Shown one piece after another: positions 3,576 to 42,990 of a stretch of 64,000 nucleotides of DNA. The stretch is from Candidatus Poribacteria bacterium. GTDB lineage: Bacteria; Poribacteria; WGA-4E; WGA-3G. The stretch spans positions 352,001-416,000 of the forward strand of contig CAXXUA010000006.1 in assembly GCA_963663765.2 (NCBI GenBank), given 5' to 3'. The translations under genes were made by a program, and so were the position numbers. Each line of letters begins with the position of its first letter. Position 1 is the first letter of the stretch. Under the pieces are notes generated by a model. It saw nothing but the letters and a program-made list of their open reading frames with translations, searched no databases and had not been told where the DNA came from.

Positions 3576-5232
3576 CTTTCTTTTACCCATAAGTTTTCAG
3601 CTATAGTGTCTATCAAGGTTGTTTAGCTGGTATTGTTTTGTCCAGCCGCTTGAAAGAGAGCATAGGTGGCAGCAATATCAGAAAGCCTTTTCCATCCTCG
3701 CCAGATAACAGTCACCCCCGGATTGCCATCGGACTTGCGTGCTAAAAATCCACCGAGTTTAGCAATCCAGACAACGACTTCAGACACTCTCGGTATTTTT
3801 TCGGGTAAAATTTGGGTCTTATGCGTTATACAGTAAAGTGCTTGCCATTCTATCTCTGTCAACACGCTCGTGCAATCTACATCCGGTGAGTGCCGATTGA
3901 TGTGGGTCAGCCAGTAAAGTCGCCACGCAATTACACTCAGCAATGCGATATAGCGTTCAAGCCGGTCTTTGGTCTGCAAACGAACTGCCTCCGCCTTCAT
4001 CCCAGATTTGAGCACTTTAAAATAAACTTCAATGTGCCAGCGTTGGCGATACCAGCTTATCCTTTCAACCGCATCGGCGAAGTCCGACACTTCTACATTT
4101 GTTATCAGAAGCCATTCCAAGGGCGTAGCACCCTCAGGCGGGTTTTTCTCTACTACCCATACAAGATACACATCTACAGCAGGCAACTCTTGTGATCGTG
4201 ATGCTTGTGAACGATGTGGTGGGCGAAGCGTCGCTGTTGTAAAATGGACACTCAAGGTCGCCTCACGAGCAGGTTGAGACGCACGCACTGGCACTTGTGC
4301 CGTAATCTCGCCAATAACAGGTTGACTTCTCACCAAATCACTCAGTTTACCGACATCAGCAGCAACCACACGATCCTGAGCCGCGCGTATCACAAAAGGC
4401 AGTTCTTTTGCCTCTACGAAAAACTCGTAAATATCTGCTTCACGATCACACACACAAATCACCTCAACATCTGCTAATGTGTCTGAACGCAACGCTGATA
4501 ATGCCTCAATCCATTTGTAGCTCTCTTTTTCTATGAGCGGTCTGAACTTAGGGGCACTTTGAACGGAGGGTTCGCGAACCCAAACTTTATCTGTCAGACA
4601 CCCTAACGGAAGACCCGCATCACTTACAATGAGGGTCGTGTGTTTGACAAGTCCCTGAATCTGTTGAGACTTGGTGCCGATTGAACCTAAACCCTCTGTT
4701 GCTGGGTGATCAGTGTAATTAAGAAAAGTCGTATCTTGTATCGCAAAAACACGACGATTTTTACACATCCGTTCAAGTGTTCTTTCAAAATGCGGTTTGA
4801 ATATCTTTTCCGATGAGACTTTTTCATTGTCAATTAAACGATAGGCTGCTTTCACTGACGCCCAATCGCCACACGCAGCGTTGATCGCCGAACCGGGTTG
4901 TGCCTCTAAAGCCTCCGCAATGCTGAGCAGCCGTTCATTGAGACGCATATCTCCCAAATCAAGACCTTCAAACTCTTGACGGCTCCAAGATGCAGATAAC
5001 TCTTGATCGTTTTCAGGATTGTGTAAAGACATCATTCACTCCTATAGCATAAGCGTAATAAATGTTTATCGACTTTGTAAATATCACTTTTGAACATAAC
5101 ATATTTGCTTTTGCTATGCAAGGAATATTAGAACTGACTTGAAAACTATACCATCTTTACCAAAACAACAGACATAACTCAACAAAAAAGAAGATGTTTA
5201 CTCAATACATCAAACTTATGGGTAAAAGTAAG
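3576..5232 (-). mobile_element. IS4-family (IS50/Tn5-like) insertion sequence
   Basis: 21-bp TIR CTT(T/A)CTTTTACCCATAAGTTT at both ends; 9-bp TSD CACTGAGGG (3567-3575, 5233-5241); inserted in a REP tandem array. Confidence 0.93.
3623..5035 (-). CDS. IS4-family DDE transposase
   Basis: LGDMRLNERL, IQDTT, CDREADIY, YRQRWHIEVYFKVLKSG and KLGGFLARKSDGNPG..IWRGW motifs of IS50/Tn5-type Tnp. Confidence 0.93.
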   Translation of the reverse strand: MMSLHNPENDQELSASWSRQEFEGLDLGDMRLNERLLSIAEALEAQPGSAINAACGDWASVKAAYRLIDNEKVSSEKIFKPHFERTLERMCKNRRVFAIQDTTFLNYTDHPATEGLGSIGTKSQQIQGLVKHTTLIVSDAGLPLGCLTDKVWVREPSVQSAPKFRPLIEKESYKWIEALSALRSDTLADVEVICVCDREADIYEFFVEAKELPFVIRAAQDRVVAADVGKLSDLVRSQPVIGEITAQVPVRASQPAREATLSVHFTTATLRPPHRSQASRSQELPAVDVYLVWVVEKNPPEGATPLEWLLITNVEVSDFADAVERISWYRQRWHIEVYFKVLKSGMKAEAVRLQTKDRLERYIALLSVIAWRLYWLTHINRHSPDVDCTSVLTEIEWQALYCITHKTQILPEKIPRVSEVVVWIAKLGGFLARKSDGNPGVTVIWRGWKRLSDIAATYALFQAAGQNNTS

Positions 5233-5975
5233 CACTGAGGGAAGGGGCGCGCTTACAAAGCACGCCTACAATCGGGGGAAGGGGCGCGCTTACAAAGCAC
5301 GCCTACCGTTGGGGGAAGGGGCGCGCTTACAAAGCACGCCTACCATTGAGGGAAGGAGCGCGCTTACAAAGCACGCCTACCATTGGGGAACATTGGGGGA
5401 AGGGGCGCGCTTACAAAGCACGCCTACCATTGGGGAAGGAGCGCGCTTACAAAGCACGCCTACAATCGGGGGAAGGGGCGCGCTTACAAAGCACGCCTAC
5501 CATTGAGGGAAGGGGCGCGCTTACAAAGCACGCCTACCATTGAGGGAAGGGGCGCGCTTACAAAGCACGCCTACCATTGAAGGAAGGGGCGCGCTTACAA
5601 AGCACGCCTACCATTGAGGGAAGGGGCGCGCTTACAAAGCACGCCTACAATCGGGGGAAGGGGCGCGCTTACAAAGCACGCCTACCATTGGGGGCGCGCT
5701 TACAAAGCACGCCTACCATTGGGGGAAGGAGCGCGCTTACAAAGCACGCCTACCACTGAGGGAAGGGGCGCGCTTACAAAGCACGCCTACCATTGAGGGA
5801 AGGGGCGCGCTTACAAAGCACGCCTACAATCGGGGGAAGGGGCGCGCTTACAAAGCACGCCTACCGTTGGGGGCGCGCTTACAAAGCACGCCTACCATTG
5901 GGGGAAGGAGCGCGCTTACAAAGCACGCCTACCACTGAGGGAAGGGGCGCGCTTACAAAGCACGCCTACCGTTGG
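5233..5975. repeat. Tandem array of REP-like hairpins, about 37-bp unit, about 20 copies
   Basis: GGCGCGCTTACAAAGCACGCCTAC repeated; on the minus strand this is GTAG + GCGTGCTT-TGT-AAGCGCGC hairpin. The array continues at 3466-3575 on the other side of the IS. Confidence 0.9.
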
Positions 5976-6256
5976 GTGCGTAAGTTCTGTACAATTAAGT
6001 TTACACTTTTTCTGTAGGTGGGGAATGCAAATAGGCGAATGCGCGTATGGCATTCGCCATGATTCATACCGTTGAATGCGATCTCTGAATAGCGACTGAA
6101 CGTCTTGATAGTCGGGAATCGGAATTCCCTCCTACCCCTGAAAGTGTAAAAATAATTCTAAAATCCACTATAATATCAGGGTTTCTACAAAAACTTTACA
6201 CACCCGGATTTCAATCTTACATTGACAATGGTGCGTTTATGTGTCAATATTAACAG

Positions 6257-6854: not shown

Positions 6855-6910
6855 GAAGTACGACTTGTGCCAGTTAACCCATTGTTTTCAAAGTTATTAC
6901 ATATATTAGG

Positions 6911-8001
6911 CAGGACTTACGCAGTCTCAAAGATTATCGATGGATTTGAGAGTTGATATCGCATATAATCATCCAATAAACTTTGTTTAAGTTCATAAAT
7001 TGTTTTGCCAAGTTTACGCGCAACACGTTTCAAACAGACCCATATTTGAAAACAACAGGCAATATGATTTCTTTGGGCACGCAACTTGCGACATTGACAT
7101 TTGCCAATACCCGTGACTTGTTTGATCTCACGATGGAGTTGTTCAATCTTCCAACGCATACGACATTCTTGGTGTGCCGCATCCGCATCCGATTGAGATA
7201 AATCGTTTGTCACAATATATTCCGTGCGCCCGGTAGAGGAGGCTATCCGGAACAACTTTACTTGATACCCTTTTGGAAACTTCTTGATGTGCACGCTTTT
7301 CCCTTGCCGGATTTCTGTCCGGGTCCAAGATAGGTCTTGGACTTGTTGGTGCGGTTGCTCGCCATCCGTATCGTTTACAAGACGATTTCGTTTCAGGGGT
7401 ACGTAGTAAATCTTAGAAAGTTTTTCAATCGCTTTCATAACTTGCATGGAGGCATACCAAGTATCCATTAGCACCGTCCGAAACGGTAACTGTTTTTTAG
7501 AGTAAGCGTTGTGCAACATTTCCAGTAAATGGTCTATTTTGGTTTTACCATCATGATCTATGTCATAAATACGGTAATCAATAATCCAATACTCTTCTGT
7601 CTTTGGATTGACATAGATACACGTCACAATACCAATGCCTTTAACGACTTTTTTGTCGCTACCACTCCACTGAGAACGGAGGACCTCAATCTCTTTCGCA
7701 TAGAGTTTAGGTAGCACAACATCGTCAAAAACAATGTAGCCATCATCATCAAACTCAATGTCGTTTTTGACCGAGTTCCAAAGTTCATTCGCGGGGATGT
7801 TTTCACCGCTCAGAAACCGATTGATTTGATCGTGGCTCCACTTATCAGTATGGTCTGCCATATAGGTTTGTGTAAAGTTTGTAAAACTTGATAACAAAAA
7901 TTGACAATAATCTGAATATAAACTTTGTTTCTTTTCGGAAAGTGTAAATGTAATCATAATGGAATAGTATAGCACAAATCTATTATAGTGCGTAAGTCCT
8001 G
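6911..8001 (-). mobile_element. IS701-family insertion sequence
   Basis: TIR CAGGACTTACGCA / TGCGTAAGTCCTG; 5-bp TSD TTAGG; the empty site is visible in the other MITE copies. Confidence 0.9.
6917..7975 (-). CDS. IS701-family DDE transposase
   Basis: SHDQINRFL, FDDVVLPK, QWSG..KVVKGIGIV, VLMDTWYA and RWKIEQLHREIKQVTG motifs. Confidence 0.88.
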   Translation of the reverse strand: MLYYSIMITFTLSEKKQSLYSDYCQFLLSSFTNFTQTYMADHTDKWSHDQINRFLSGENIPANELWNSVKNDIEFDDDGYIVFDDVVLPKLYAKEIEVLRSQWSGSDKKVVKGIGIVTCIYVNPKTEEYWIIDYRIYDIDHDGKTKIDHLLEMLHNAYSKKQLPFRTVLMDTWYASMQVMKAIEKLSKIYYVPLKRNRLVNDTDGEQPHQQVQDLSWTRTEIRQGKSVHIKKFPKGYQVKLFRIASSTGRTEYIVTNDLSQSDADAAHQECRMRWKIEQLHREIKQVTGIGKCQCRKLRAQRNHIACCFQIWVCLKRVARKLGKTIYELKQSLLDDYMRYQLSNPSIIFETA

Positions 8002-8808
8002 TTAGGTTTATAATGCATACATATCGTCCCTACGGGACTAAAGAGGATGTACTATGCCGTTTTTCTATAAACATATCGTCCCTACGGGACTAAAGATCGT
8101 TTCAAACTATGAAGGACACCTGCAAAACGCCATGCTTATGTGAAACAATGATTAACGTATAGTTATTTAGCACAATTCGTTAAGAAGTATGCGAATATGC
8201 CGTTTGCACAGATCACACAGCAGGAAGCGGAGAACCTGAACAAGAATAGAGCCTCTGGGGCAACTTGAGCAGTCTTCGCATTCTTGAAGATGAACTTCAA
8301 TACGAAAAACGGTATGCTGACGACGACTATCGGTGATGATGCGATCAACTACCAGACGATTGCGAACCGGTTGGGGTATCACCGGACGATTATTCGGCGG
8401 TCAGTGCATTGGTTAAATCGGCATCAGATGGTAAATACATACTTGGACAAATTTTTGCGGGGCGTGTCCATAATGTCCTTCCTTCCCCGCAGTCACAGCA
8501 AAATGAGAAGAAAAAATAAAATGTATACTTGTATATTGTCTGAACCAGGATTTACAGGATTAGGGTTTTGAGGAATTAAATCCATCGCGTTGGTAGGAGC
8601 GACCCGGGGAATGCCTTGGGCGAATGCGCTTGGTAGATTACGCGTATGGTATTCTACATGATTCGCCATGATTCATACCTTTGATTTACCTGTCGCGATT
8701 GTCTCGGTACTTGTCCTTCGCAGGTGATGACTGACCGCTGATGGTTATTACCGTTTCTATTCCAAACTGGTGCGATTAGAAGTTTTCCTTTTTGCAGATT
8801 TGTTAAAT

Positions 8809-9135
8809 TTATTTTTTATTGGAGCTGGTTGGTATATTTTTGAAATTAATCCCGATACTAATGACTATCCCTGTTTTTACTTCAACGATGTATGTATGAT
8901 ATTCATGAATTTTACGTTCTTTTGTTTGAGTTTCATATTCAAACTGATAGGCTTTTAGTGTGAGTTCTTCATTGACCAATCGGGGTGTTGAATACTCATA
9001 TCCTTTATAGAACACTTTAACGTGATCTATATGTTGTCCTATGAAGTTATCTTGATGTGTTTTTTCAAAGACTGGGGGATTTGTGGTGCAACTGAAAAGT
9101 GTGAGTATACAGAGTATTAATATTATTTGACGCAT
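8809..9135 (-). CDS. Small lipoprotein (paralog B)
   Basis: MRQIILILCILTLFSC lipobox; GAGG RBS; tandem duplicate of 9157-9495 at a 360-bp offset. Confidence 0.8.
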   Translation of the reverse strand: MRQIILILCILTLFSCTTNPPVFEKTHQDNFIGQHIDHVKVFYKGYEYSTPRLVNEELTLKAYQFEYETQTKERKIHEYHTYIVEVKTGIVISIGINFKNIPTSSNKK

Positions 9136-9156
9136 TTGGTTTTACCTCTATGTTGG

Positions 9157-9495
9157 TTATTTTTTATTGAAACTGGTTGGTCGGTTTTTCATTATGTTTT
9201 TGTATTCAACACCAACGGTAATGACTTTTCCTGTTTTTACTTCAACGATGTATGTATGATATTCATGAATTCTACGTTCTTTTGTTTGAGTTTCATATTC
9301 AAACAGATAGCCTTTTCGTGTGCTATCTCTATCGACCCATCGGGGTGTTGGGTGTTTATATTCTTTATAGAACTCTTTAACGTTATCTATATGTTGTCCT
9401 ATGAAGTTATTTTGGTGTCTATTTTCAAAGATTGAGGGATTTGTGGTGCAACTGAAAAGTGTGAGTATGCAGAGTATTAATATAGTTTGACGCAT
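9157..9495 (-). CDS. Small lipoprotein (paralog A)
   Basis: MRQTILILCILTLFSC lipobox; GAGG RBS; highly similar to paralog B. Confidence 0.8.
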   Translation of the reverse strand: MRQTILILCILTLFSCTTNPSIFENRHQNNFIGQHIDNVKEFYKEYKHPTPRWVDRDSTRKGYLFEYETQTKERRIHEYHTYIVEVKTGKVITVGVEYKNIMKNRPTSFNKK

Positions 9496-9679
9496 TTGGT
9501 TTTACCTCTATGTTGTTATTTTCTGAGTAATTATTATAATATATTTATGCAGAACTGATTTCATATTTGTATAGGTTTGTTTCTATTCCAAACTGATTCA
9601 ATTAGATAGAAGAAAACCCCTGCCCCTCATCAAAGGGGTAAGAGCAAAAGTTTCTATTCCAAATTAGTTCGATTAGAAA

Positions 9680-9835
9680 GACATCCAAAAACTATATTAA
9701 TATAATAACTTACCCGCTCGGTACTTGTCAAGTCAATTTTGGTTTTGCTCGGATTTTTGGGGTGTTTGCTGTCGACCTCCAATCGTGCAAAATCTCTGGG
9801 AGGTTGACAGCAGAGTTGTTGGATGTATACACGTA
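9680..9835 (-). promoter_or_regulatory. CRISPR leader of the mini-array
   Basis: CTGCTGTCAACCTCCCAGAGATTTTGCACGATTGGAGGTCGACAGCA is nearly identical to the leaders at 24744 and 61202; TTGACA-N18-TATTAT promoter at the equivalent position. Confidence 0.85.
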
Positions 9836-10474
9836 TAAATGTATACACACGACTTGTGTCAGTTAACCCATTGTTTTCAAAGTTATTACATATATTAGGT
9901 TTATAATGCGCACATATCGTCCCTACCAAATCAACCCCAAATGCGCCAAATCAACGGTATGAATGCCATTAAGGCATTCCCCGTATGGCATTTGTCGGGA
10001 CTGAAGATCGTTTCAAACTATGAAGGACACCTGCAAAACGTTATGCTTATGTGAAACAATGATTAACATATAGTTATTTAGCACAACTCGTTAATATTAT
10101 ATATGAACGGGTGAGGTGTTTGGGAGGTTTTTTGGATGTTGTTTATTGGGATTTCATATAGATATACAACGGATAATCAATTGACTGGATTGTCTGAACC
10201 AGGATTTTCAGGATTATGAGTTTTGCTCGTTATGGTGCGAATCACAAGTAATACCATTTTCATGTGATAATGTCTCATTAGCAGCGGAAATCTGGTAGGA
10301 GCGACCTCACGGTCGCGACCGGGAGGTCGCTCCTACCGAAGAGAGTAACCCCCTGCCAGTATACAGTAGAATTCCTTAATGAGACAAGATTTATTTGAAT
10401 TGGTATAAGGATAAACGCACATCATATATACCTGGATTTTTTCTGAACCAGGATTTTCAAATCAAGAAATCAAG

Positions 10475-10761
10475 AAATCAACGGTATGAATGCCATTTAG
10501 GCATTCCCCCAAATCAACGGTATGAATGCCATTTAGGCATTCCCCCAAATCAACGGTATGAATGCCATTTAGGCATTCCCCCAAATCAACGGTATGAATG
10601 CCATTTAGGCATTCCCCCAAATCAACGGTATGAATGCCATTTAGGCATTCCCCCAAATCAACGGTATGAATGCCATTTAGGCATTCCCCCAAATCAACGG
10701 TATGAATGCCATTTAGGCATTCCCCCAAATCAACGGTATGAATGCCATTTAGGCATTCCCC
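10475..10761. repeat. Tandem 36-bp hairpin module, 8 copies
   Basis: CAAATCAACGGTATGAATGCCATTTAGGCATTCCCC repeated; GAATGCC/GGCATTC stem. Confidence 0.93.
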
Positions 10762-11234
10762 GGGTATGAATGCTATAAAGCATTCCCCCAAATCAACGCC
10801 AAATGCGCCTATGGCATTCGTCGGGTATGAATGCCTTATGGCATTCCCCGGGATTTCCAAATTTCCGGGATTATGAGTTTTGCTGTTTCTGCTGGTAATG
10901 AAAAGTGAGCATAAACGCCCATCATATATACCTGGATGTGGAAAATCCTGTTAATCTGGTAATCCTGATAAACATGGTTCAGAAAAATAAAACCCGCGAA
11001 CGGTCGCGACCAGGAGGTCGCTCCTACCAACGCGGGGAGTGTAATGCGTGTAATCCGCGATTCCGAACATATTTTCCATACCTGGATGTGGTAAATCCTG
11101 TAAATCTGGTGATCCTGTGAATCCTGGTTCAGAAAAATAAAACCCGCAAACGGTCGCGACCAGGAGGTCGCTCCTACCACTGCGGGGAGTGTAATGCGTG
11201 TAATCCGCGATTCCGAACATATTCCCCATATCAG

Positions 11235-11417
11235 GGGTGTGTAAAGTTTTGGTTACTGTGCGTAGGGGCGGGGTCTCCCCGCCCGAAAAGAGGTCTTACG
11301 CGGGCGAGGAAACCTCGCCCCTACGATGTCCACAGTTCCCTAACGTCAAGCAAGTTTTGATAGTAACTGGACGGACTTCTTTTAATATTAGAGTTCTACA
11401 AAACACTTTACACACCC
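11235..11417. mobile_element. MITE (GGGTGTGTAAAG ends) carrying a REP doublet
   Basis: TIR GGGTGTGTAAAG / CTTTACACACCC; 9-bp TSD CCATATCAG; internal GTAGGGGCGGGGTCTCCCCGCCC...GCCCCTAC pair. Confidence 0.85.
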
Positions 11418-19677: not shown

Positions 19678-20545
19678 GGGCGCGCTTACAAAGCACGCCT
19701 ACTGATGGCGGGGTGGGGCGCGCTTACAAAGCACGCCTACTGATGACGGGGTGGGGCGCGCTTACAAAGCACGCCTGCAAGAGGGATAAGAGGGCGCGCT
19801 TAAAAAGCACGCCTGCAAGAGGGATAAGAGGTGCGCGCTTAAAAAGCACCAAATCAACGGTATGAATCATGGAGCATGCCATACGCGCATGCTTCTTTAA
19901 GCATTCCCCGCCCGCAAGAGGGGTAAGAGGGGCGCGCTTACAAAGCACCAAATTAACGGTATGAATCATGGAGCATGCCATACGCGCATGCTTCTTTAGG
20001 CATTCCCCGCCCGCAAGCTTACTATTACCCATAAGTGGAATTGGAGGGACAAAGGCTCGACATGCTGCTGTAGGAGGAGTTTCTAACCCCGATAGAGGAC
20101 AGAAAACTGGTCATAAGAACTAAAAAACCTTGTGAAATTAGTCTAAAAGGCCTATAAAGGTATCCTACATCTAAAATATTGGTCAGTTTTCAGGCGTTTT
20201 TGAGCAACAGGCACCTACAAAAGACTTAACGGACTATACCCAAAAACTTATGGGTAATAGTAAGGCCCGCAAGAGGGGTAAGAGGGGCGCGCTTACAAAG
20301 CACGCCTACAGTTAGGGGCGCGCTTGCAAAGCACGCCTACAGTTAGGGGCGCGCTTACAAAGCACGCCTGCAAGAGGGATAAGAGGGGCGCGCTTACAAA
20401 GCACCAAATCAAAAAATCAACGGTATGAATACCTTATGGTATTCCCCGGGTATGAATGACATTTAGGCATTCCCCGCCTGCAAGAGGGATAAGAGGGGCG
20501 CGCTTACAAAGCACGCCTGCAGTTAGGGGCGCGCTTACAAAGCAC
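19678..20545. repeat. REP cluster with nested 36-bp modules
   Basis: Many GGCGCGCTTACAAAGCACGCCT copies, some interrupted by CAAATCAACGGTATGAAT...GCATTCCCC; similar clusters at 21990-22310 and 49065-49330. Confidence 0.85.
20018..20264. mobile_element. MITE with IS4-type ends
   Basis: TIR CTTACTATTACCCATAAG / CTTATGGGTAATAGTAAG matches the IS at 3576-5232; 9-bp TSD GCCCGCAAG. Confidence 0.88.
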
Positions 20546-20847
20546 GCATACCACAAGAGGGGTGGAATCCGTGTCATTCGCGATCCTGGAGCGTTCGGAA
20601 TCGCGGAGAAGAGTTCTGCCAATCAATCATATATAAATATGCTGATCTTGCTGTTTTTTCTATATGTCAGCTGTTCCTTTTTGTGCAGCAAAAGATAATA
20701 TTTGCACCTAATGGTGCATTTCATTGTGGCTGTTCTCTGCTTTTACAAGTATTACGGGTTTCTTAAATTGGCACGCGAATTGCTTTTTTATTCATAAGTC
20801 TACCATAAATGTAATATATCCAAATATTACAACACAAGGAGTTTCTT

Positions 20848-21825
20848 ATGAGAAGAAGTTTATTGATACTCAGTATTTTCCTTGCCATGATGCTGGTTGC
20901 ATGTGGTGGTGATGATGAACCTATCATAGATCCTGACAAGACGTATTTTTCAGGCATACTCAAAGGGCATACAAAGAGTGTCTACACTGTAGCGTTTAGT
21001 CCGGATGGGAACACCCTTGCCAGTGGGGGTTATGACAAAACCATTCGTCTGTGGGACACGGACGATGGGACACAGATACGTATATTATCAGGACATAGGG
21101 GGCCTGTCAGTAGCGTAGCGTTCAGTCCGGATGGTAGCACTATCGCAAGTGGCAGTCAGGACTATACTATTCTATTATGGAACGCAAATAACGGCACGCC
21201 TCTCCGCTCCCTCACAGGGCATACGAATGAGGTCAGAAGTGTTGCGTTCAGTCCGGATGGTAGCACGGTCGCCAGTGGCAGTAATGACAGTACCATCCGT
21301 TTGTGGAACGCAAGTAACGGTACACATATCCGCACGTTCACAGGGCATAGGGGAGCTGTCCGGAGTGTTGCGTTCAATCCGGATGGTAATACCCTCGCCA
21401 GTGGGAGTGATGACGGTACCATTCGCGTGTGGAATGTAAGTGATGACAAGCTTCCTCGCACGCTCCCAGGTCATTTGCTGGGTGTCTTCACCGTAGCGTT
21501 CAATCCGGATGGTAGCACCCTCGCCAGTGGGAGTTGGGACGCAACCATCAATTTGTGGGACGCAAATGACTGCATACATCTCCACACCCTCACTGGGCAT
21601 ACAGGTTCTATCTTAAGCGTGGTGTTTAGTCCCGATGGTAGCACACTCGCAAGTGGGAGTGGTGACGATACCATACGTTTGTGGGACGCAAGTGATGGGT
21701 CGCATCTCCGCACGCTTTTATGGAATTTCTATGAGATCACAAGCGTAGCGTTTAGTCCGGATGGTAAAGCCCTTGCCGGTGCCAATGGTGACATCACCGT
21801 CCGCATGTGGGACCTCACTGAGTGA
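20848..21825 (+). CDS. WD40-repeat lipoprotein
   Basis: AAGGAG RBS, LVACGG lipobox, 7 WD40 repeats; paralog of 17483-18511. Confidence 0.92.
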   Translation: MRRSLLILSIFLAMMLVACGGDDEPIIDPDKTYFSGILKGHTKSVYTVAFSPDGNTLASGGYDKTIRLWDTDDGTQIRILSGHRGPVSSVAFSPDGSTIASGSQDYTILLWNANNGTPLRSLTGHTNEVRSVAFSPDGSTVASGSNDSTIRLWNASNGTHIRTFTGHRGAVRSVAFNPDGNTLASGSDDGTIRVWNVSDDKLPRTLPGHLLGVFTVAFNPDGSTLASGSWDATINLWDANDCIHLHTLTGHTGSILSVVFSPDGSTLASGSGDDTIRLWDASDGSHLRTLLWNFYEITSVAFSPDGKALAGANGDITVRMWDLTE

Positions 21826-22482
21826 TGTTGGTTGTCTGAACCAGGATGGACAGGATTAGCGGATTGCCAGGATTTACCTCATCCAGGTATATATGATGCG
21901 CGTTTAGGCTTACTTTTGGTTAGGAGCAGAAAGAGACAAACTCATAATCTTGGAAATCTGGTAATCCTGTGAATCCTGGTTCAGAAAAGAGGGCGCGCTT
22001 ACAAAGCACGCCTGCAGTTAGGGGCGCGCTTACAAAGCACGCCTACAGTTAGGGGCGCGCTTACAAAGCACGCCTGCAAGAGGGATAAGAGGGCGCGCTT
22101 ACAAAGCACGCCTGCAGTTAGGGGCGCGCTTACAAAGCACGCCTACTGATGGCGGGGTGGGGCGCGCTTACAAAGCACCAAATCAAGTAATCAAGAAATC
22201 AACGGTATGAATGCCTTTTGGCATTCCCCGGGTATGAATCATGGAGCATGCCATACGCGCATGCTTCTTTAGGCATTCCCCGCCTACCATTGGAGGAAGG
22301 GGCGCGCTTTTACAAGAGGGGAACAGTCGCGACCAGGAGGTCGCTCCTACGTTGACCTGCTCTACTACCTCAGTAGTAATAAAAAGAACAGTCGCGACCA
22401 GGAGGTCGCTCCTACCAGCGCGCGGGGTAGTGTACGGAATCACGGAGGACATGGAAAAACACGGATAAGTCACCTCATCCAT

Positions 22483-24867: not shown

Positions 24868-27800
24868 CTTTTAATCGAACCAGTTTGGAATAGAAACATA
24901 GTCCATCCTTCCTAACCAAAAGGGGATACCTACTTTTAATCGAACCAGTTTGGAATAGAAACAGAGGAACGCTCTCACAAAATCAATCTCCAAATTGAAA
25001 TCTTTTAATCGAACCAGTTTGGAATAGAAACTCTAATTTCATTTGAAACAGCCAACCTACATGTCTGCTTTTAATCGAACCAGTTTGGAATAGAAACACT
25101 CTTTGAACTCCCACGTCTCCCACGGATTACGTGCTTTTAATCGAACCAGTTTGGAATAGAAACTGGTACGTTGAAAAAGCACCAGGACATGCAACGCAGG
25201 CTTTTAATCGAACCAGTTTGGAATAGAAACCCAATAGCAGCACCTTTGGGTCCAAAAAAACTACCGACTTTTAATCGAACCAGTTTGGAATAGAAACCTC
25301 TGTGTCCAATTCGCCCTGAAGTATGGCAGCACCCTTTTAATCGAACCAGTTTGGAATAGAAACGTCTTCTTCCTTCATAATATTCTCCCTTGTAAATGAC
25401 CTTTTAATCGAACCAGTTTGGAATAGAAACTTCAACCCATTGTTCGTCTGACTCCCCTTCACGTCTTTTAATCGAACCAGTTTGGAATAGAAACTTAGGT
25501 GTGGGTGCTTTGGTACTGTGTGTGGTTGGCTTTTAATCGAACCAGTTTGGAATAGAAACATCTCAGCAAATCCGGATTCAGTTGGTGCTTTACGAGTGCC
25601 TTTTAATCGAACCAGTTTGGAATAGAAACGGTCTAAAGGACTTTCTTTCTTATCACGGGTTGTCGCCAACTTTTAATCGAACCAGTTTGGAATAGAAACT
25701 TTTCATTTGTTCATATTTGGTGAAAGTAATAGCTATACTTTTAATCGAACCAGTTTGGAATAGAAACATCGTCCCCGCTGTCCGTGCCGTTGGCGTGGTT
25801 GCACTTTTAATCGAACCAGTTTGGAATAGAAACGATATAGATTATACACCTCAAAAGTCAAGTCTTCGCCTTTTAATCGAACCAGTTTGGAATAGAAACG
25901 AAACCGGTGATGCACTAACTTTTAAAGTGAACTTGAGACTTTTAATCGAACCAGTTTGGAATAGAAACTTAATAGAAAATCAGGCTCTTATCATTGAAAC
26001 CTACTTTTAATCGAACCAGTTTGGAATAGAAACTGACTTCCTGCAAGGATTTCCCAATTTTCCGTTGTTCTTTTAATCGAACCAGTTTGGAATAGAAACT
26101 CTGGCACATCATAATCAGATTGAAACGCAATGGACTTTTAATCGAACCAGTTTGGAATAGAAACTTTGGCATAGGATACATCGCCTGAACACGTGCTTGC
26201 CACTTTTAATCGAACCAGTTTGGAATAGAAACACCTACATCAAAAACCTATGAATGATAAAAACAAATTCTTTTAATCGAACCAGTTTGGAATAGAAACA
26301 CGGAAAGCCATTACACCCTAACGGGAAAGGATAATCTTTTAATCGAACCAGTTTGGAATAGAAACTTATGACGATTGATACGTCCCAAATACAACATGTA
26401 ATCTTTTAATCGAACCAGTTTGGAATAGAAACAATGAAGAATTAAACGCTTATACTCTTATTGATGGTGACTTTTAATCGAACCAGTTTGGAATAGAAAC
26501 GTAGTACCACCAAGCCGACCAGCCAAGTTAGTTCCCATCCTTTTAATCGAACCAGTTTGGAATAGAAACTCTGTGATATACTATATCATAGACAAATTAA
26601 CGCAAATACTTTTAATCAAACCAGTTTGGAATAGAAACAAATCTCTCCGTCATACTGAGCGACACACTCAAACTTTTAATCGAACCAGTTTGGAATAGAA
26701 ACCAGTTTTGCGATTTCACAGCAGCAATAAATTTGTGAACTTTTAATCGAACCAGTTTGGAATAGAAACTCAAGTCCTTGCGAGACTCTACCTGATGTTC
26801 CTTCCTTTTAATCGAACCAGTTTGGAATAGAAACCTTTATGAAATCTGTTAATTTCTTGGGATCGGTGCGTCTTTTAATCGAACCAGTTTGGAATAGAAA
26901 CGATAATACTACCAGTTTGCCTTTAACGTTATGACCTTGTCTTTTAATCGAACCAGTTTGGAATAGAAACGACTCCGCATTAACCTCAAACTGCTTCTTT
27001 ACATTACTTTTAATCGAACCAGTTTGGAATAGAAACTGTTTGGCAAGCTTCAACGATGCACGAATTGTTTCCTTTTAATCGAACCAGTTTGGAATAGAAA
27101 CGTGAAATTATGTGTGAGTGCCGTTGCTGCAAGGTCTATCCACCTTTTAATCGAACCAGTTTGGAATAGAAACAATGGATTACTCATTACTCTGATGTCT
27201 CCTCAAAGTCCTTTTAATCGAACCAGTTTGGAATAGAAACTCTTGACGCGCTTTATATATAACACAAAACTTTGACTTTTAATCGAACCAGTTTGGAATA
27301 GAAACGCTTTTCGGCACAAGCACAATGCGTATCATATTACTTTTAATCGAACCAGTTTGGAATAGAAACTACGCTATGACAATAGCTCTGTTTTCATCTT
27401 TTACTTTTAATCGAACCAGTTTGGAATAGAAACTCTATAACAAATCCTTATATAATTGCAGCAATTGAGACTTTTAATCGAACCAGTTTGGAATAGAAAC
27501 GGCGACATATAAAGAGGTAGGAATGTGCCGAGTGTTACTTTTAATCGAACCAGTTTGGAATAGAAACCGTCAAGTTCATCAAAAGCGACTGACAAGTTAT
27601 TGCTTTTAATCGAACCAGTTTGGAATAGAAACGCTGCCTTGCGCGCGGATTTTAGGTTGATCGCAGTTTGCTTTTAATCGAACCAGTTTGGAATAGAAAC
27701 GTGGGGTGCAAGGGTGTGGTGTGTATTCCGCACACAAACGACTTTTAATCGAACCAGTTTGGAATAGAAACTGTATTAGGGATAAATAAGGTCAACAATT

Positions 27801-30800
27801 AAAATTGACTTTTAATCGAACCAGTTTGGAATAGAAACCAATTTGGATTAGACAACTTGTGGAGAAAGCGATCATCTTTTAATCAAACCAGTTTGGAATA
27901 GAAACTCACTTCTTGATTGAGTGAAATAGTTGTAAGATAGACTTTTAATCGAACCAGTTTGGAATAGAAACACACTGCCATCAGTCCATATCTTTTGCAG
28001 TGACAACTTTTAATCGAACCAGTTTGGAATAGAAACTGTGGGAATTGCAACGTGATGTTCGCATCCGTCGGTTCACTTTTAATCGAACCAGTTTGGAATA
28101 GAAACAGGCTAACATAATTCTAACTCCTGATGTGTGAGTGGCTTTTAATCGAACCAGTTTGGAATAGAAACAGCATCTCATGCACACCAGAACTACGCCG
28201 CACGTGTTCCTTTTAATCGAACCAGTTTGGAATAGAAACGCTAACGATGTGCTTTTGATAGGTGCTGAGTATGACTTTTAATCGAACCAGTTTGGAATAG
28301 AAACGATGCTTCGATACCAACAGGATTTAGTATTTCAGGAACTTTTAATCGAACCAGTTTGGAATAGAAACAACACACTCACAGCATCATTTTTAGATTG
28401 TGCAAGGCTTTTAATCGAACCAGTTTGGAATAGAAACGTCGTCCTCGCCTAGTGTGTGTTTTTTATATGTCATGCTTTTAATCGAACCAGTTTGGAATAG
28501 AAACTCTGACGCTTTTTACGAGTAGGTTCTGATAGGTGTTACCTTTTAATCGAACCAGTTTGGAATAGAAACGTTTCCTCTGGGTCGCAGCTGAGGTTTT
28601 GCAGGCGTTCTACTTTTAATCGAACCAGTTTGGAATAGAAACTATCATTTCCTAATGTTGCCCGATACCGCAACCGACTTTTAATCGAACCAGTTTGGAA
28701 TAGAAACATTCAAGTATGTTGTGCCATCTTTATCAGACAACGCCTTCTTTTAATCGAACCAGTTTGGAATAGAAACGAGATCATAGATTGTTTTTCCAGT
28801 ATTGTTCTGAGTTCACTTTTAATCGAACCAGTTTGGAATAGAAACTAAAAGAGCCGAGCCGTATTTTTCCCTGATTTGTGGCACTTTTAATCGAACCAGT
28901 TTGGAATAGAAACATGGATTAGTTGACATTGAAAATGTTAGCGATATTATTAAACTTTTAATCGAACCAGTTTGGAATAGAAACATGACTTCTGCATATC
29001 CTACGAGATCAAGTGGCATTGCCTTTTAATCGAACCAGTTTGGAATAGAAACGGAACATCGCAATCAAATAAAAGAGGGTAATATTCACCTTTTAATCGA
29101 ACCAGTTTGGAATAGAAACACCACATTTTCAGAGATAGTGGCAGGATCACCAACGACTTTTAATCGAACCAGTTTGGAATAGAAACGTATCTTGCTGAAA
29201 TCAATATCACGCAAGAATCTACCTTTTAATCGAACCAGTTTGGAATAGAAACGAATATGCGACTAATTTTGACAATCCTGACATAGTGACTTTTAATCGA
29301 ACCAGTTTGGAATAGAAACAAGCCAGTATGGTCACGTGATTACTTTATGCAAACTTTTAATCGAACCAGTTTGGAATAGAAACCTTTTCTTTGGTTGGCG
29401 ACCATCGACAACGCAATTTTCTTTTAATCGAACCAGTTTGGAATAGAAACATTTTTGGTCCTTATACGGTCACTGCTCCGATTGTCTTTTAATCGAACTA
29501 GTTTGGAATAGAAACGCTCTCGGTTGGTGTTGTTCACAACAAACGCATGAACACGTCTTTTAATCGAACCAGTTTGGAATAGAAACGAAATTTATTATGC
29601 TGGATTACAAGACGAGGGAGGAACTTTTAATCGAACCAGTTTGGAATAGAAACTTCACGGTGTTGTAGTACTGCTTGGTGCTTGTCAGGCTTTTAATCGA
29701 ACCAGTTTGGAATAGAAACACAGACGCATCATCGTGGCAAAACTGGTAAACGACAAGCTTTTAATCGAACCAGTTTGGAATAGAAACAGAGGTGCGTGTG
29801 GGCAGAGTAAAGTCTAAATCACACTTTTAATCGAACTAGTTTGGAATAGAAACAGTATTTAGACATTCGCGTGGACATTCTCTTAATATCTTTTAATCGA
29901 ACTAGTTTGGAATAGAAACCCGTCTTGTCAGATGATCCTGTGTCTGTAATCACGCTTTTAATCGAACCAGTTTGGAATAGAAACTCATTTGGATGAAGCG
30001 TTCGGAGGTAATGTTCATTACTTTTAATCCAACCAGTTTGGAATAGAAACGTCTTATCTAAAAGTGTTTTCAGTTCCCTTAAAGCTTTTAATCGAACCAG
30101 TTTGGAATAGAAACCCTAACTGGACTCACTTTCGTATGATAGATTTTGGATCTTTTAATCGAACCAGTTTGGAATAGAAACCTGACAACGAGTGCATCAT
30201 CTGATCCGCTATTTACCTTTTAATCGAACCAGTTTGGAATAGAAACCTAAATGTAGCAGTGTCAATAGAAAGTGTTGTGCCCTTTTAATCGAACCAGTTT
30301 GGAATAGAAACATATAAGCAAAGTCATAAGGTATGTCTTTAGGTTCCTTTTAATCGAACCAGTTTGGAATAGAAACAATTGCACGCAATGGAAGAAAGAA
30401 AACAGGACGAGTTAACTTTTAATCGAACCAGTTTGGAATAGAAACATTCCTGCTAAATCAATTATTATTTTACTCTTCTTTCTTTTAATCGAACCAGTTT
30501 GGAATAGAAACGAACCATGCCTTACTGTGTCAAAATTCCATATTCTACTTTTAATCGAACCAGTTTGGAATAGAAACTTTGGTAAGAAACAACATCAAGA
30601 GGTATAACGTGACTTTTAATCGAACCAGTTTGGAATAGAAACATTGCTTCAGGTCAGACATATCCTCCAATTCCGCACTTTTAATCGAACCAGTTTGGAA
30701 TAGAAACAACTTTTTACAAGAACGGCGAGGTGGAACTCAAAAAGCTTTTAATCGAACCAGTTTGGAATAGAAACTTCACGTTCGGTTTCAGGGATGACGA

Positions 30801-33815: not shown

Positions 33816-34160
33816 GTGAAGATTAAGGCAACCTTTGATGTTTTAGTATTTCTTATGGCATTAATGGTTCTCTGTATGCATTTTACTATTTTGGCACAAG
33901 AAAGTTCATAGTTGGAAGATGCTGAAGTCGCTGTTAATCAAGTGGAGTGGGGTTCCTATGTGGTTTCCGACGGTTATTGTGGTTTTTACGCTGTAACCAC
34001 CGTCTGCAGCACGGTTCGTTGGAAAATCGCTAGAATATAACTGTATTTGTATACAAACTTACAAAGCAAAGGTCCGGAACCGTCAAGCAGGTCCTGTTTT
34101 CTGGGTTGTTTGGCTGGATGGCTTGCTTTATACTTAACCGGTCTGGTATCCAATCAATGA
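33816..34160 (+). pseudogene. Degraded small secreted or membrane protein gene
   Basis: GAGG RBS, signal peptide VKIKATFDVLVFLMALMVLCMHFTILAQ, in-frame TAG at 33909, then LEDAEVAVNQVEW and frameshifted PPSAARFVGKSLEY...QTYKAKVRNRQ and GCLAGW. Confidence 0.5.
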
Positions 34161-40041: not shown

Positions 40042-40328
40042 AAGAAAAAATTGAACATCGTGAAAATACACTCAATCGTGTGATTGAACTGCTAATTTCC
40101 GGTCTGCAACTTGATCGTTCTTATGAAGAATTAGATCCGGATACACCCCTTTTCGGTACCGGACTCGGGCTTGACTCTGTAGATGCTGTTGAGATCGTTG
40201 TGGCTTTGGAATCGGAATTCGGTGTTTCACTTGAGGAAGGTGATAGCATGTTCGCCCTACGCACAATTAATTCCCTTGTGGATGTGGTACTGAGTCAAAG
40301 TGAGGATAATCTTGATGACGGAAGCTGA
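40026..40328 (+). CDS. Acyl carrier protein
   Basis: PLFGTGLGLDSVDAVE phosphopantetheine site; acidic, 100 aa. Confidence 0.92.
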   Translation: MQPELKEKIEHRENTLNRVIELLISGLQLDRSYEELDPDTPLFGTGLGLDSVDAVEIVVALESEFGVSLEEGDSMFALRTINSLVDVVLSQSEDNLDDGS

Positions 40329-42943: not shown

Positions 42944-42990
42944 AGTAGTCCCAAATTCTCTTATTTGACCTTGTTCAGGGAATACGCCTC

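What the first reader, a model, noticed from the sequence alone, without database searches (positions are those of the whole stretch)
8753..9835. Protein genes as a giant spacer: leader-driven mini-array bracketing two lipoprotein genes
Seen: on the minus strand a leader nearly identical to those of both big arrays is followed by repeat, 41-nt spacer, repeat, a 796-nt interval with two intact tandem lipoprotein genes in the same orientation, then a third repeat. All three repeats keep the 3' TTTGGAATAGAAAC intact while their 5' parts are mutated. Known: Cas6 cuts type I-B repeats leaving an 8-nt 5' handle (here ATAGAAAC). Inference: the lipoprotein mRNA is driven by a CRISPR leader and could be excised by Cas6 with a crRNA handle, coupling surface-protein expression to Cas activity. 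Alternatively the genes were captured or inserted into an array. I know of no described system with this layout.
Basis: partly seen in the sequence, partly recalled or inferred. Interest (0 to 1): 0.85.

Follow-up and report, generated by a model that had tools for sequence, protein, structure and literature searches.

The report
Lipoprotein genes inside a mini-CRISPR array
A tiny, decaying CRISPR array in a sponge-symbiont-type (Poribacteria-like) genome carries two small lipoprotein genes where a spacer should be; related genomes show similar gene-sized inserts, so it is probably a tolerated insertion, though the genes could be expressed through the array.

Summary
The layout is real. On the minus strand a CRISPR leader conserved across the genus (9813-9680; 71-86% identical to the genome's three other leaders) is followed by R1, a 41-nt spacer, R2, 796 nt with two intact tandem lipoprotein ORFs, and R3. 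After R3 comes the same ancestral terminal spacer that ends two other arrays. This is therefore a complete, tiny, degenerating type I-B-like array whose last spacer slot holds a gene cassette.

The cassette is an ORFan (no relative among 5.8 billion or 1.84 billion proteins). It lies in the most AT-rich 0.4% of the genome and has no transposon marks.

The "leader-driven, Cas6-excised mRNA" idea is neither shown nor excluded.
- For: the leader promoter is intact, the 3' halves of all three repeats are intact, and no terminator-like site was found before R3.
- Against: the 41-nt spacer is the most stable hairpin of 309 spacers and looks like a terminator, and the cassette has its own promoter-like site.

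New here: in related genomes 11 of 1924 inter-repeat intervals are gene-sized. All 7 independent non-transposase, ORF-bearing ones point the same way as the array, mostly near the trailer end, and one is again a lipoprotein. The most likely reading is tolerated insertions. Array-based gene expression remains possible.

The parts
9680..9813 (-). CRISPR leader, with a conserved block containing a palindrome (about 9808-9771) and a sigma-70-like promoter (-35 TTGACA 9731-9726, -10 TATTAT 9707-9702)
   Evidence: Alignment with the leaders of arrays 1 and 3. BLAST gives 71-86% identity to three other leaders in the genome. Related leaders at 70-80% identity occur across the genus. The promoter scan matches 11 of 12 positions.
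9650..9679 (-). R1, a degenerate repeat with 3 substitutions (positions 1, 14, 16); the 8-nt 3' end ATAGAAAC is intact
   Evidence: Positions 1 and 14 never vary among 20 distinct consensus repeats; an A at position 16 is a natural variant.
9609..9649 (-). S1, a 41-nt spacer that forms a 12-pair hairpin followed by UUUCUUCU, so it looks like an intrinsic terminator
   Evidence: MFE -16.2 kcal/mol, rank 1 of 309 spacers (mean -3.75, sd 2.97). It is listed as a terminator-like site. The fold of 9570-9700 has z -2.9. No self-target was found beyond chance. No exact match in viral contigs and none in related loci.
9579..9608 (-). R2, a degenerate repeat with 4 substitutions (positions 1, 2, 9, 13), all at positions that are otherwise invariant; the 3' 17 nt are intact
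8783..9578 (-). 796-nt low-GC cassette occupying the spacer slot between R2 and R3
   Evidence: GC is 31.4%; only 0.38% of 15,850 genome windows of this size are as low. It is single-copy in the genome apart from its internal duplication. No terminal inverted repeats or target duplication were found.
9536..9564 (-). Promoter-like site inside the cassette (ATGAAA, 17 nt, TATTAT), upstream of lp1
   Evidence: 9 of 12 consensus positions. The scan as a whole is not above shuffles (11 sites against 8.1 +/- 2.9).
9157..9495 (-). lp1, 112 aa: signal peptide ending in LFSC (lipobox-like), with a GAGG Shine-Dalgarno 8 nt before the ATG
   Evidence: No family was found in Pfam, PHROGs, PADLOC or the PDB. 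The AlphaFold2 model is poor, pLDDT 52.
8809..9135 (-). lp2, 108 aa: a tandem paralogue of lp1 (74% amino-acid identity; 42 differences in 324 aligned nt), 21 nt downstream of lp1
   Evidence: dN/dS is 0.46-0.69 overall and 0.13 in the signal peptide.
8753..8782 (-). R3, a near-perfect repeat (A11 to C); this sequence is identical to the consensus repeat of 2 large arrays in related genomes
8716..8752 (-). Terminal spacer, homologous to the terminal spacers of array 3 (contig C6:423021 onward) and of the small array at 48893-49433
   Evidence: BLAST of 8725-8783 against C6:422990-423048 gives 85% over 59 nt, E 4e-10. Alignment.
8703..8715 (-). 13-nt copy of the leader's -35 region (GACAAGTACCGAG), meaning unknown
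   Evidence: Direct repeat with 9717-9729

Best explanation
This is an orphan, decaying type I-B-like mini-CRISPR, complete from its leader to the ancestral terminal spacer. Its last spacer slot is filled by a horizontally acquired, AT-rich ORFan cassette of two tandemly duplicated small lipoprotein genes that point the same way as the array.

The cassette landed, or was left, at the trailer end, where crRNA output matters least, and was tolerated. Gene-sized inserts have accumulated in the same way in arrays of related genomes.

The genes are probably transcribed from the promoter-like AT-rich stretch inside the cassette, plus whatever reads through the terminator-like first spacer from the leader promoter. 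The scan found no terminator-like site between lp2 and R3, and R3 is a fully functional-type repeat. Cas6 therefore probably trims the 3' end of the mRNA at R3. I read this as a by-product of location, not a designed link between surface-protein expression and Cas activity.

Shown: the layout, the homologies, the composition, the ORFan status and the recurrence in relatives. Inferred: horizontal origin, the transcription routes and Cas6 cutting.
For: **Array identity**
- The leader, three repeats and a terminal spacer are shared with two other arrays.

**Decay**
- R1 and R2 carry 2 and 4 substitutions at positions that never vary among 20 distinct consensus repeats from 44 arrays.
- By contrast, 110 of 116 repeats in array 1 are perfect.

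**Foreign origin of the cassette**
- GC is 31.4%, in the lowest 0.38% of 15,850 windows.
- The only hits were the two window genes themselves, among 4 candidates in the 5.8-billion-protein collection, and lp2 alone in the profile search of 1.84 billion representatives.
- 1 of 41 related genomes has a match, and that one is the window's own genome.
- There is no DNA match in the loci fetched from relatives up to that call.

**The genes look real**
- They have a lipoprotein-type signal peptide and a Shine-Dalgarno sequence.
- The two copies differ by an in-frame 12-nt indel.
- dN/dS is 0.13 in the signal peptide.

**Barrier between leader and genes**
- S1 is rank 1 of 309 spacers for fold stability and looks like a terminator.

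**Own promoter-like site**.

**Insertions into arrays are common in this lineage**
- A MITE sits in a repeat at 48958-49403.
- 2 kb of repeat-rich DNA interrupts array 3.
- In relatives, 11 of 1924 intervals are 300 nt or longer.
- In the 6 arrays whose end lies inside the fetched stretch, the 7 non-transposase inserts sit at intervals 60 and 72 of 75, 65 of 65, 25 of 25, 94 of 94 and 3 of 3. The two transposase inserts sit at 74 of 75 and 1 of 10.
- The inserted genes are unrelated to each other: a Uma2 endonuclease, a 267-aa lipoprotein, membrane proteins and ORFans.
- The homologues checked lie outside arrays.
- The 267-aa lipoprotein ORF in L118 runs into the terminal repeat and stops at the repeat's TAG. 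That is the mark of an accidental junction.
Against: - In relatives, 7 of 7 independent non-transposase inserts that carry an ORF point the same way as the array; with this window it is 8 of 8. A purely neutral insertion model would predict about half. The bias needs selection against antisense genes, or a real use of array transcription.
- In three relatives the Shine-Dalgarno sequence lies 0-33 nt after a repeat, which leaves no room for a promoter of their own (L016, L085 first insert, L118).
- All 8 repeat substitutions in the window fall in positions 1-16. My own arithmetic gives (16/30)^8 = 0.0065, computed after seeing the pattern. This may mean the Cas6 and handle part is under selection.
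- The cassette sits between two full-length repeats with no visible spacer remnant and no transposon marks, so how it got there is unexplained.
- No expression data exist either way.
Confidence: 0.5

Rival explanations
1. The lipoprotein operon is a working part of the array transcript. The leader promoter drives it, Cas6 cuts at R2 and R3 and releases an mRNA with an 8-nt crRNA handle at its 5' end and a repeat tag at its 3' end. Lipoprotein output would then depend on Cas6 and array transcription.
For: - The leader promoter matches 11 of 12 positions and is the best promoter-like site upstream of the genes.
- The genes and the array point the same way. In relatives, 7 of 7 independent ORF-bearing, non-transposase inserts do too.
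- Inserts without room for a promoter exist in relatives: in L118 GGAGG lies 33 nt after a perfect repeat, in L016 GGAG lies 10 nt after one, and in L085 GGAGG follows a degenerate repeat directly.
- The 3' 14 nt of all three window repeats are intact.
- R3 equals a functional consensus repeat.
- The scan found no terminator-like site before R3.
- cas6 is present.
- A second array-embedded lipoprotein exists in a relative.
Against: - S1 is a terminator-like hairpin, the most stable of 309 spacers, and lies between leader and genes.
- R2 has 4 changes at invariant positions, so Cas6 recognition is uncertain.
- Most inserts in relatives lie 1.6-6 kb from their leader, at the trailer end.
- In L118, a cut at the terminal repeat would remove the stop codon.
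- The inserted genes share no family, and the homologues checked sit outside arrays.
- No RNA data are available.
Confidence: 0.2
2. A Cre-like regulatory mini-array. R1-S1-R2 would encode a crRNA-like RNA (as CreA and CreR do) that guides Cascade to repress a promoter through partial complementarity, with the neighbouring small genes as the controlled cargo or toxin.
For: - Two degenerate repeats flank one spacer, with the 5'-handle part of R1 intact. This is the hallmark described for creA genes and for the mini-arrays surveyed by Shmakov et al. (PMC10120712, passages read; abstracts of PMC9458426 and PMC8501985 in the listing).
- This genome does have a convincing example elsewhere. In the mini-array at 51334-51477, 16 of the first 17 nt of the second spacer match 51673-51689, 5 nt after the -10 box of a 12-of-12 consensus promoter upstream of the large-subunit gene.
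Against: - S1 has no match of 9 nt or more anywhere else in the window.
- Its only seed matches in the genome are two copies of one dispersed element, at chance level and with a different flanking motif.
- It has no complementarity to the lp promoter region.
- The locus is 40 kb from the cas operon.
- No related locus carries S1.
Confidence: 0.07
3. Capture by the adaptation machinery. This concerns origin only and is compatible with the other explanations. Cas1-Cas2 would have integrated an oversized DNA fragment at the leader-proximal repeat and duplicated the repeat. S1 would have been added later by a normal acquisition.
For: - The cassette is bounded by two full-length repeats, with no partial repeat, no recognisable spacer remnant and no transposon marks.
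- The order leader-R1-S1-R2-cassette-R3-ancestral spacer is what polarised acquisition would produce.
- cas1, cas2 and cas4 are present.
Against: - R2 and R3 differ at 5 positions.
- In relatives the junctions are untidy: a repeat with an internal 5-nt deletion in L085 and an ORF truncated by the junction in L118.
- As far as I recall, no integration of kilobase-sized spacers by Cas1-Cas2 in cells is known; this was not searched.
Confidence: 0.1
4. The ORFs are not functional genes. They would be a duplicated AT-rich fragment whose reading frames survive by chance or are decaying.
For: - No homologue exists anywhere.
- The AlphaFold2 model has pLDDT 52.
- In the mature part dN/dS is 0.88, and the 42 differences are spread 13/15/14 over the three codon positions.
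Against: - Both copies keep a lipoprotein-type signal peptide with dN/dS 0.13.
- Both keep a Shine-Dalgarno sequence.
- Neither has a stop or frameshift, and the indel between them is in frame.
- The protein-language-model recognition score was 2942, above the 2300 that 91 in 100 known families reach.
Confidence: 0.08

Closest known systems
CRISPR arrays interrupted by mobile elements (IS elements, MITEs, and the Tn7-like transposons that target CRISPR arrays in cyanobacteria; PMC11837452, abstract and outline read)
   Same: Foreign DNA of hundreds to thousands of bases sits between or within repeats while the rest of the array stays intact. This genome and its relatives have clear cases: a MITE in a repeat at 48958-49403 and transposase genes in L099 and L121.
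   Different: The 796-nt cassette has no transposase, no terminal inverted repeats and no target duplication, and it is single-copy. It carries two ordinary-looking envelope protein genes and is bounded by complete repeats.
CreTA, CreR and crRNA-like mini-arrays (PMC10120712, passages read; PMC9458426 and PMC8501985, abstracts in the search listing only)
   Same: One spacer is flanked by two degenerate repeats with the handle-forming part kept, next to small genes.
   Different: The defining partial match of the spacer to a nearby promoter is absent. The locus is not in or beside the cas operon. It has a full leader and a third, near-perfect repeat.
Integron gene cassettes (recalled, not searched)
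   Same: Small, often ORFan genes, some without a promoter, all in one orientation, sit between recombination-site repeats downstream of a single promoter.
   Different: There is no integrase or attC site. The repeats are CRISPR repeats. Junctions in relatives are imprecise. The inserts cluster at the end far from the promoter.
Synthetic use of Cas6/Csy4 sites to cut operon mRNAs into defined units (recalled from Qi et al. 2012; not read here)
   Same: An mRNA flanked by CRISPR repeats would be released by a Cas6-type nuclease with fixed ends.
   Different: That system is engineered. Six of my seven literature searches (and, for this lineage, 52) looked for a natural case and found none, and none is shown here.

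Membership tests
CRISPR array (type I-B-like) | Leader with a promoter directly upstream of the first repeat | tested here: met
   9813-9680 aligns with three other leaders at 71-86% identity. The promoter matches 11 of 12 positions.
CRISPR array (type I-B-like) | Two or more direct repeats of the genome's repeat family, in one orientation | tested here: met
   R1, R2 and R3 have 3, 4 and 1 mismatches. The repeat core occurs 164 times against 0.24 expected.
CRISPR array (type I-B-like) | Spacers of uniform length (32-42 nt in this genome) | tested here: not met
   S1 is 41 nt, within range. The second interval is 796 nt.
CRISPR array (type I-B-like) | Matching cas genes in the genome, including cas6 | tested here: met
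   cas6, a 592-aa gene with no family hit (presumed large subunit), cas7, cas5, cas3, cas4, cas1 and cas2 lie at 50223-61078. The Cas7 and Cas5 hits to the I-B-specific models fall below their curated cut-offs, hence 'I-B-like'.
CreTA / CreR / crRNA-like regulatory mini-array | Spacer partially complementary, from its 5' end and next to a PAM, to the promoter of a neighbouring toxin or cas gene | tested here: not met
   There is no other match of 9-12 nt from the 5' end of S1 in the window. The genome hits are at chance level.
CreTA / CreR / crRNA-like regulatory mini-array | Degenerate repeats that keep the handle-forming nucleotides | tested here: inconclusive
   The 8-nt 3' end of R1 is intact. 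The 5' part of R2, which would form the 3' handle, is degenerate.
CreTA / CreR / crRNA-like regulatory mini-array | Conserved in related CRISPR-cas loci | tested here: not met
   S1 and the cassette are absent from the related loci fetched up to that call, and no lp match was found in 40 other genomes.
IS / MITE / transposon insertion | Transposase gene, or terminal inverted repeats with a target duplication, and usually several copies | tested here: not met
   The cassette is single-copy. No flanking inverted or direct repeats were found. No transposase domain was found.
Bacterial lipoprotein | N-terminal signal peptide ending in a lipobox with an invariant Cys | tested here: met
   MRQTILILCILTLFSC and MRQIILILCILTLFSC. 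The lipobox rule is recalled, and no predictor was run.
Bacterial lipoprotein | Membership of a known lipoprotein family | tested here: not met
   No hits in Pfam, PHROGs, PADLOC or the PDB. The Atlas gave only a weak lead to BamE-like clusters, score 0.88.
Intrinsic terminator (S1) | GC-rich hairpin followed by a U tract | tested here: met
   Listed by the scan. Fold energy is -16.2 kcal/mol, followed by UUUCUUCU. Whether it terminates transcription cannot be tested here.

The most novel reading that the evidence does not exclude
In this Poribacteria lineage, type I-B arrays would double as expression sites for accessory genes, often envelope genes. The genes sit in spacer slots, always pointing the same way as the array, and some have no promoter of their own and a ribosome-binding site only 0-33 nt after a repeat. 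Their mRNAs would be made as part of the pre-crRNA, cut out by Cas6, and carry a crRNA handle. Their expression would then be tied to array transcription and to the state of the Cas proteins, for example as a back-up surface defence or an addiction module. The window's leader-proximal lipoprotein pair would be the most compact example.
Probability: 0.15. Interest if true: 0.8.

Novelty: new variant of a known kind. Interest (0 to 1): 0.6.

Why it matters
CRISPR arrays are treated as pure spacer stores that are at most disrupted by transposons. Here ordinary protein genes occupy spacer slots, in one orientation, repeatedly across a lineage, and twice they encode lipoproteins.

If the genes merely ride on array transcription, this shows how tolerant the trailer ends of arrays are, and it gives a natural case of Cas6 shaping an mRNA end. 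If the arrangement is used, it would be a natural counterpart of engineered Cas6-insulated operons. It would also be a new link between adaptive immunity and the cell surface.

The case is directly testable by RNA end-mapping and a Cas6 cleavage assay.

Tried and rejected
**Homologue and family searches for lp1/lp2 (all empty)**
- Word-indexed search of 5.8 billion proteins.
- Profile search of 1.84 billion representatives.
- Six-frame search of 41 genomes.
- Pfam at E up to 10, PHROGs, PADLOC and PDB sequences.
- The Atlas gave only unnamed clusters at 0.92 and BamE/DUF3192 leads at 0.88.
- AlphaFold2 gave pLDDT 52. I therefore ran no fold search, because a poor model gives meaningless matches.

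**Targets of S1 and of the other possible guides**
- The genome-wide short BLAST and seed searches found nothing above chance.
- There was no exact match in viral contigs. An inexact protospacer would have been missed.
- No spacer among 2228 distinct ones matches the cassette beyond chance.

**Empty-site search**
- DNA searches of 40 same-genus genomes (only part of its 1,900+ matches is listed) and of the fetched loci found neither the cassette nor the unique flank 8200-8752. No allele without the insert is known.
- DNA comparison of the L118 lipoprotein locus with its non-array homologues was too diverged (70%) to map capture boundaries.

**RNA evidence**
- No RNA holder was listed.
- The four runs laid are contigs. 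Many 'joints' there have sides under 31 nt and come from repeats, so I did not use them. Bin 8836-8902 had no cover, which says nothing.

**Other checks**
- Rfam gave nothing relevant.
- Repeat structure: RNAfold gives only weak folds (-2.6 to -4.9 kcal/mol; z -0.6 to -2.6). I dropped an earlier idea that the R1 and R2 substitutions preserve a small hairpin.
- Conservation of the cas6-proximal mini-array's promoter match: 0 of 68 related cas6 loci met my strict criterion, and 15 of 68 have a repeat-like core after cas6. That feature is documented for this genome only.
- Literature searches found no description of non-mobile genes in spacer slots or of natural Cas6-processed mRNAs. Supplements were not seen, and subscription journals are largely missing from the library.

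**Limits of the census**
- It covers only arrays reached from leader hits, cas6 loci and a few listed repeat hits.
- Repeats were called at up to 7 mismatches to this genome's consensus.
- Intervals above 6000 nt were ignored.
- I dropped L001-L014, L128 and L138 as duplicates of other loci.
- Intervals of 80-299 nt (10) were not analysed; several contain missed degenerate repeats.
Full report
**1. The observation**

- A leader is followed by R1 (9679-9650), a 41-nt spacer S1 (9649-9609) and R2 (9608-9579).
- Then come 796 nt (9578-8783) with two ORFs of 112 and 108 aa on the same strand (9495-9157 and 9135-8809).
- R3 follows at 8782-8753.

Against the array-3 repeat CTTCTAATCGAACCAGTTTGGAATAGAAAC, the three copies have 3, 4 and 1 mismatches. 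All 8 substitutions are in positions 1-16, and the last 14 nt are identical. The 15-nt core occurs 164 times in the window against 0.24 expected.

The leader aligns with those of array 1 (24868-32570) and array 3 (61336 to the window end). BLAST gives 86% over 168 nt to a fourth leader on contig C4, 78% over 239 nt to array 3 and 71% over 164 nt to array 1. 'Nearly identical' holds only for a core of about 46 nt containing a palindrome and for the -35 box. Homology starts at 9813. Positions 9823-9900 are a copy of a dispersed element present about 60 times in the genome, which also ends the IS at 6860-6925.

Contigs of a second study's runs cover 9439/9486-9878 without a difference in 3 of 4 runs, and 8915-9465 with 0-1 differences in 4 of 4. 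The leader-to-lp1 part is therefore not an assembly artefact. The lp2-R3 junction was not independently covered.

**2. The setting**

The genome (6.35 Mb, 15 contigs, 41% GC) belongs to a genus whose Cas6 relatives all lie in MAGs titled Candidatus Poribacteria.

It has three large arrays with 116, 112+4 and 80 repeats, and three small ones. The cas operon reads cas6 (50223-50975), a 592-aa gene with no family hit, then cas7, cas5, cas3, cas4, cas1 and cas2, ending at 61078 next to array 3. This is a type I-B-like order.

The mini-array lies about 40 kb from the operon. Its surroundings are full of transposases (3623-5035, 6917-7975), WD40 genes and short dispersed repeats with up to about 480 copies.

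**3. It is a whole array, not a fragment**

The 30 nt after R3 (GGTAATAACCATCAGCGGTCAGTCATCACC) are homologous to the sequence after the last repeat of array 3 (contig C6:423021) and of the small array at 48893-49433. BLAST of repeat plus spacer gives 85% over 59 nt, E 4e-10.

The locus therefore runs from a leader to the ancestral terminal spacer. The lipoprotein genes occupy its last spacer slot.

**4. State of the repeats**

Among 44 arrays of 10 or more repeats (this genome and relatives) there are 20 distinct consensus repeats. They vary only at positions 4, 11, 16, 17, 18 and 25.
- R3 (A11 to C) is identical to the consensus of 2 of those arrays, so it is a functional-type repeat.
- R1 is changed at invariant positions 1 and 14. 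Its A at position 16 is a natural variant.
- R2 is changed at invariant positions 1, 2, 9 and 13.

This looks like decay of an array that no longer acquires spacers. Yet the part next to the expected Cas6 cut is untouched in all three repeats. My arithmetic, done after seeing the pattern, gives (16/30)^8 = 0.0065. Predicted folds of the repeats are weak, so I make no structural argument.

**5. The spacer S1**

S1 folds into a 12-pair hairpin at -16.2 kcal/mol, followed by UUUCUUCU and the U-rich start of R2.
- It is the most stable of the 309 spacers of the genome (mean -3.75, sd 2.97).
- It is one of 3 that meet a simple terminator criterion.
- The consensus scan also lists it.
- The fold of 9570-9700 has z -2.9.

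A spacer taken from a terminator region of a phage is not in itself odd. But here it stands between the leader promoter and the genes and should stop part of the transcription. S1 has no target in the genome beyond chance, no exact match in viral contigs and no copy in related loci.

**6. The cassette**

- The two ORFs are tandem duplicates: 42 differences in 324 aligned nt, 74% amino-acid identity, and one in-frame 12-nt indel.
- Each starts MRQ(T/I)ILILCILTLFSC, a lipoprotein-type signal peptide, 8 nt after GAGG.
- dN/dS is 0.46-0.69 overall, 0.13 in the signal peptide and 0.88 in the mature part. Codons 65-88 are nearly identical.
- No relative exists in any protein collection searched, and no family or solved structure matches. 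The AlphaFold2 model is poor. The Atlas gives only weak leads to BamE-like small lipoproteins.
- The cassette has 31.4% GC. The low-GC block coincides with 8780-9620, and only 0.38% of 15,850 genome windows are as low.
- It is single-copy, and no terminal inverted repeats, target duplication or transposase were found.
- A promoter-like site (ATGAAA-17-TATTAT, 9564-9536) precedes lp1. The scan found no terminator-like site on this strand between lp2 and R3. That scan found sites at about the rate of shuffled sequence, so these are weak indications.

**7. Relatives**

I fetched arrays downstream of leader hits and beside cas6 genes. After removing duplicate loci there are 38 array segments with 1963 repeats and 1924 intervals. 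Eleven intervals are 300 nt or longer.
- Two hold transposase genes: L099 on the opposite strand and L121 on the same strand.
- One (L100) has no convincing ORF.
- Eight carry their longest ORF on the array strand:
  - L016: 89 aa.
  - L085: 106 aa and 171 aa.
  - L099: 77 aa.
  - L099 and L104: an orthologous 223-aa Uma2 endonuclease (Pfam E 6e-20), counted as one event.
  - L118: a 267-aa lipoprotein (MKSYRQFWFIFVLVCFCILITSC...; insert GC 32%).
  - L126: 136 aa.

That makes 7 of 7 independent events co-oriented, and 8 of 8 with this window.

Three of the seven events in relatives have independent support as genes: the Uma2 domain, homologues at 50-63% identity of the L118 protein and homologues at 44-47% of the L126 protein. 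The two others I checked (the 89-aa L016 ORF and the 171-aa L085 ORF) are ORFans. The 106-aa L085 ORF and the 77-aa L099 ORF were scanned against family libraries only.

The homologues checked are not next to repeats, with one exception. In L133 a distant paralogue of the L118 lipoprotein directly follows a repeat-spacer-degenerate-repeat remnant.

Where the array end lies inside the fetched stretch, the non-transposase inserts sit at intervals 60 and 72 of 75, 65 of 65, 25 of 25, 94 of 94 and 3 of 3. This is a clear bias towards the trailer end.

Some inserts have their own promoter and terminator (the Uma2 gene and the 171-aa ORF of L085). Others have a ribosome-binding site 0-33 nt after a repeat and so no room for a promoter (L016, L085 first insert, L118). 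The L118 ORF runs into the degenerate terminal repeat and ends at the TAG of its ATAGAAAC. The junction therefore truncated the gene.

This genome shows two further array disruptions: a MITE of about 430 nt inside a repeat (48958-49403) and 2 kb of repeat-rich DNA inside array 3.

**8. Interpretation**

The simplest account of all this is that trailer ends of arrays in this repeat-ridden lineage collect foreign DNA, and that the window's mini-array is one such case. It is made conspicuous because the array has shrunk to three repeats, which leaves the leader only about 100 nt from the cassette.

The points for this account are:
- the truncated L118 gene;
- the lack of relatedness among the inserted genes;
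- the homologues found in ordinary contexts;
- the trailer-end bias;
- the decay of R1 and R2;
- the terminator-like S1.

Three things are not explained by accident alone:
- the uniform co-orientation;
- the promoter-less inserts in relatives;
- the intact Cas6-proximal halves of the repeats.

These observations mean either that antisense inserts are selected against, or that array transcription is really used to express such genes.

I put 0.5 on tolerated insertion with incidental processing and 0.2 on functional leader/Cas6 coupling. The smaller shares go to Cas1-Cas2 capture (an origin question), a Cre-like role (its defining promoter match was tested and is absent) and non-functional ORFs.

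**9. Novelty**

Six of seven literature searches (and, for this lineage, 52) looked for descriptions of non-mobile protein genes in spacer slots or of natural mRNAs released by Cas6, and found none. What they did find are regulatory mini-arrays (PMC10120712, passages read) and transposons that target arrays (PMC11837452, abstract and outline read). Supplements and most subscription journals were not visible.

I therefore file the finding as a new variant of a known kind (an interrupted array), with a recurrent and oriented pattern in one lineage that deserves an experimental test.

Noticed in passing
window 51334-51477, target at 51673-51689: A mini-array lies between cas6 and the large-subunit gene: half a repeat, a 35-nt spacer, a degenerate repeat, a second 35-nt spacer and another degenerate repeat. 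Of the first 17 nt of the second spacer (GTATATTGTTGTATAGT), 16 match a site 5 nt after the -10 box of a perfect TTGACA-17-TATAAT promoter (51640-51668), preceded by CCA and 130 nt upstream of the gene at 51800. It looks like a Cas-autoregulating crRNA-like RNA of the CreR type. With a strict criterion, 0 of 68 related cas6 loci showed the same match.
   Followed up: partly
window 48893-49500: A small array without the usual leader. Its second repeat is split after 14-15 nt by an element of about 430 nt with terminal inverted repeats (ATAGGTGTCAAC...) and a duplication of about 20 nt that includes the repeat start. It ends with the shared terminal spacer and a degenerate repeat.
   Followed up: partly
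contig C6:420787-422787 (beyond the window end, inside array 3): Array 3 is interrupted by 2 kb of dispersed and tandem repeats with no convincing ORF. Four more repeats and the terminal spacer follow.
   Followed up: partly
L118:8845-9648 (minus strand), same-genus genome G055: A 267-aa lipoprotein gene fills the last interval (94 of 94) of a 95-repeat array. GGAGG lies 33 nt after a perfect repeat, and the stop codon is the TAG inside the degenerate terminal repeat. Homologues in two other genomes are not near repeats.
   Followed up: yes
L133:1138-2040, same-genus genome G052: A solitary repeat, a 37-nt spacer and a degenerate repeat directly precede a lipoprotein gene (MKHIFFPLLFFSLILGC...) that is distantly related (27%) to the array-embedded L118 lipoprotein.
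   Followed up: partly
L099, L104, L085, L016, L126 (related arrays): Gene-sized inserts between repeats, all pointing the same way as the array: a Uma2 endonuclease (orthologous in two genomes), small membrane proteins and ORFans. Several ribosome-binding sites lie within 0-33 nt of the upstream repeat.
   Followed up: partly
window 9689-9702 and 9475-9488 (also 9115-9128): A 14-nt perfect inverted repeat links the leader's -10/start region with codons 3-7 of lp1 (12 of 14 with lp2). Most of the leader arm lies upstream of the likely transcription start, so RNA pairing is doubtful. It may be chance in AT-rich DNA.
   Followed up: no
window 61366-61404 and contig C4:703750: The first spacer of array 3 recurs, 3 nt shorter, inside the array on contig C4, so the arrays share spacers by duplication or recombination.
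   Followed up: no
window 58158-59743: Tandem repeats with periods of 128 and 77 nt fill the gap between cas4 and cas1 inside the cas operon.
   Followed up: no
window 5170-6050, 19680-22190, 49040-49330, 10230-11400 and elsewhere: Families of short dispersed and tandem repeats (for example GGCGCGCTTACAAAGCACGCC units) occur with tens to hundreds of copies genome-wide, so the genome is unusually repeat-ridden.
   Followed up: no
window 34106-45635: An operon of fatty-acid/polyketide-type genes (FabZ-like dehydratases, ketosynthase, short-chain reductase, acyltransferase, FAD oxidoreductase, an aminomethyltransferase-like gene) lies between array 1 and the small array at 48893.
   Followed up: no
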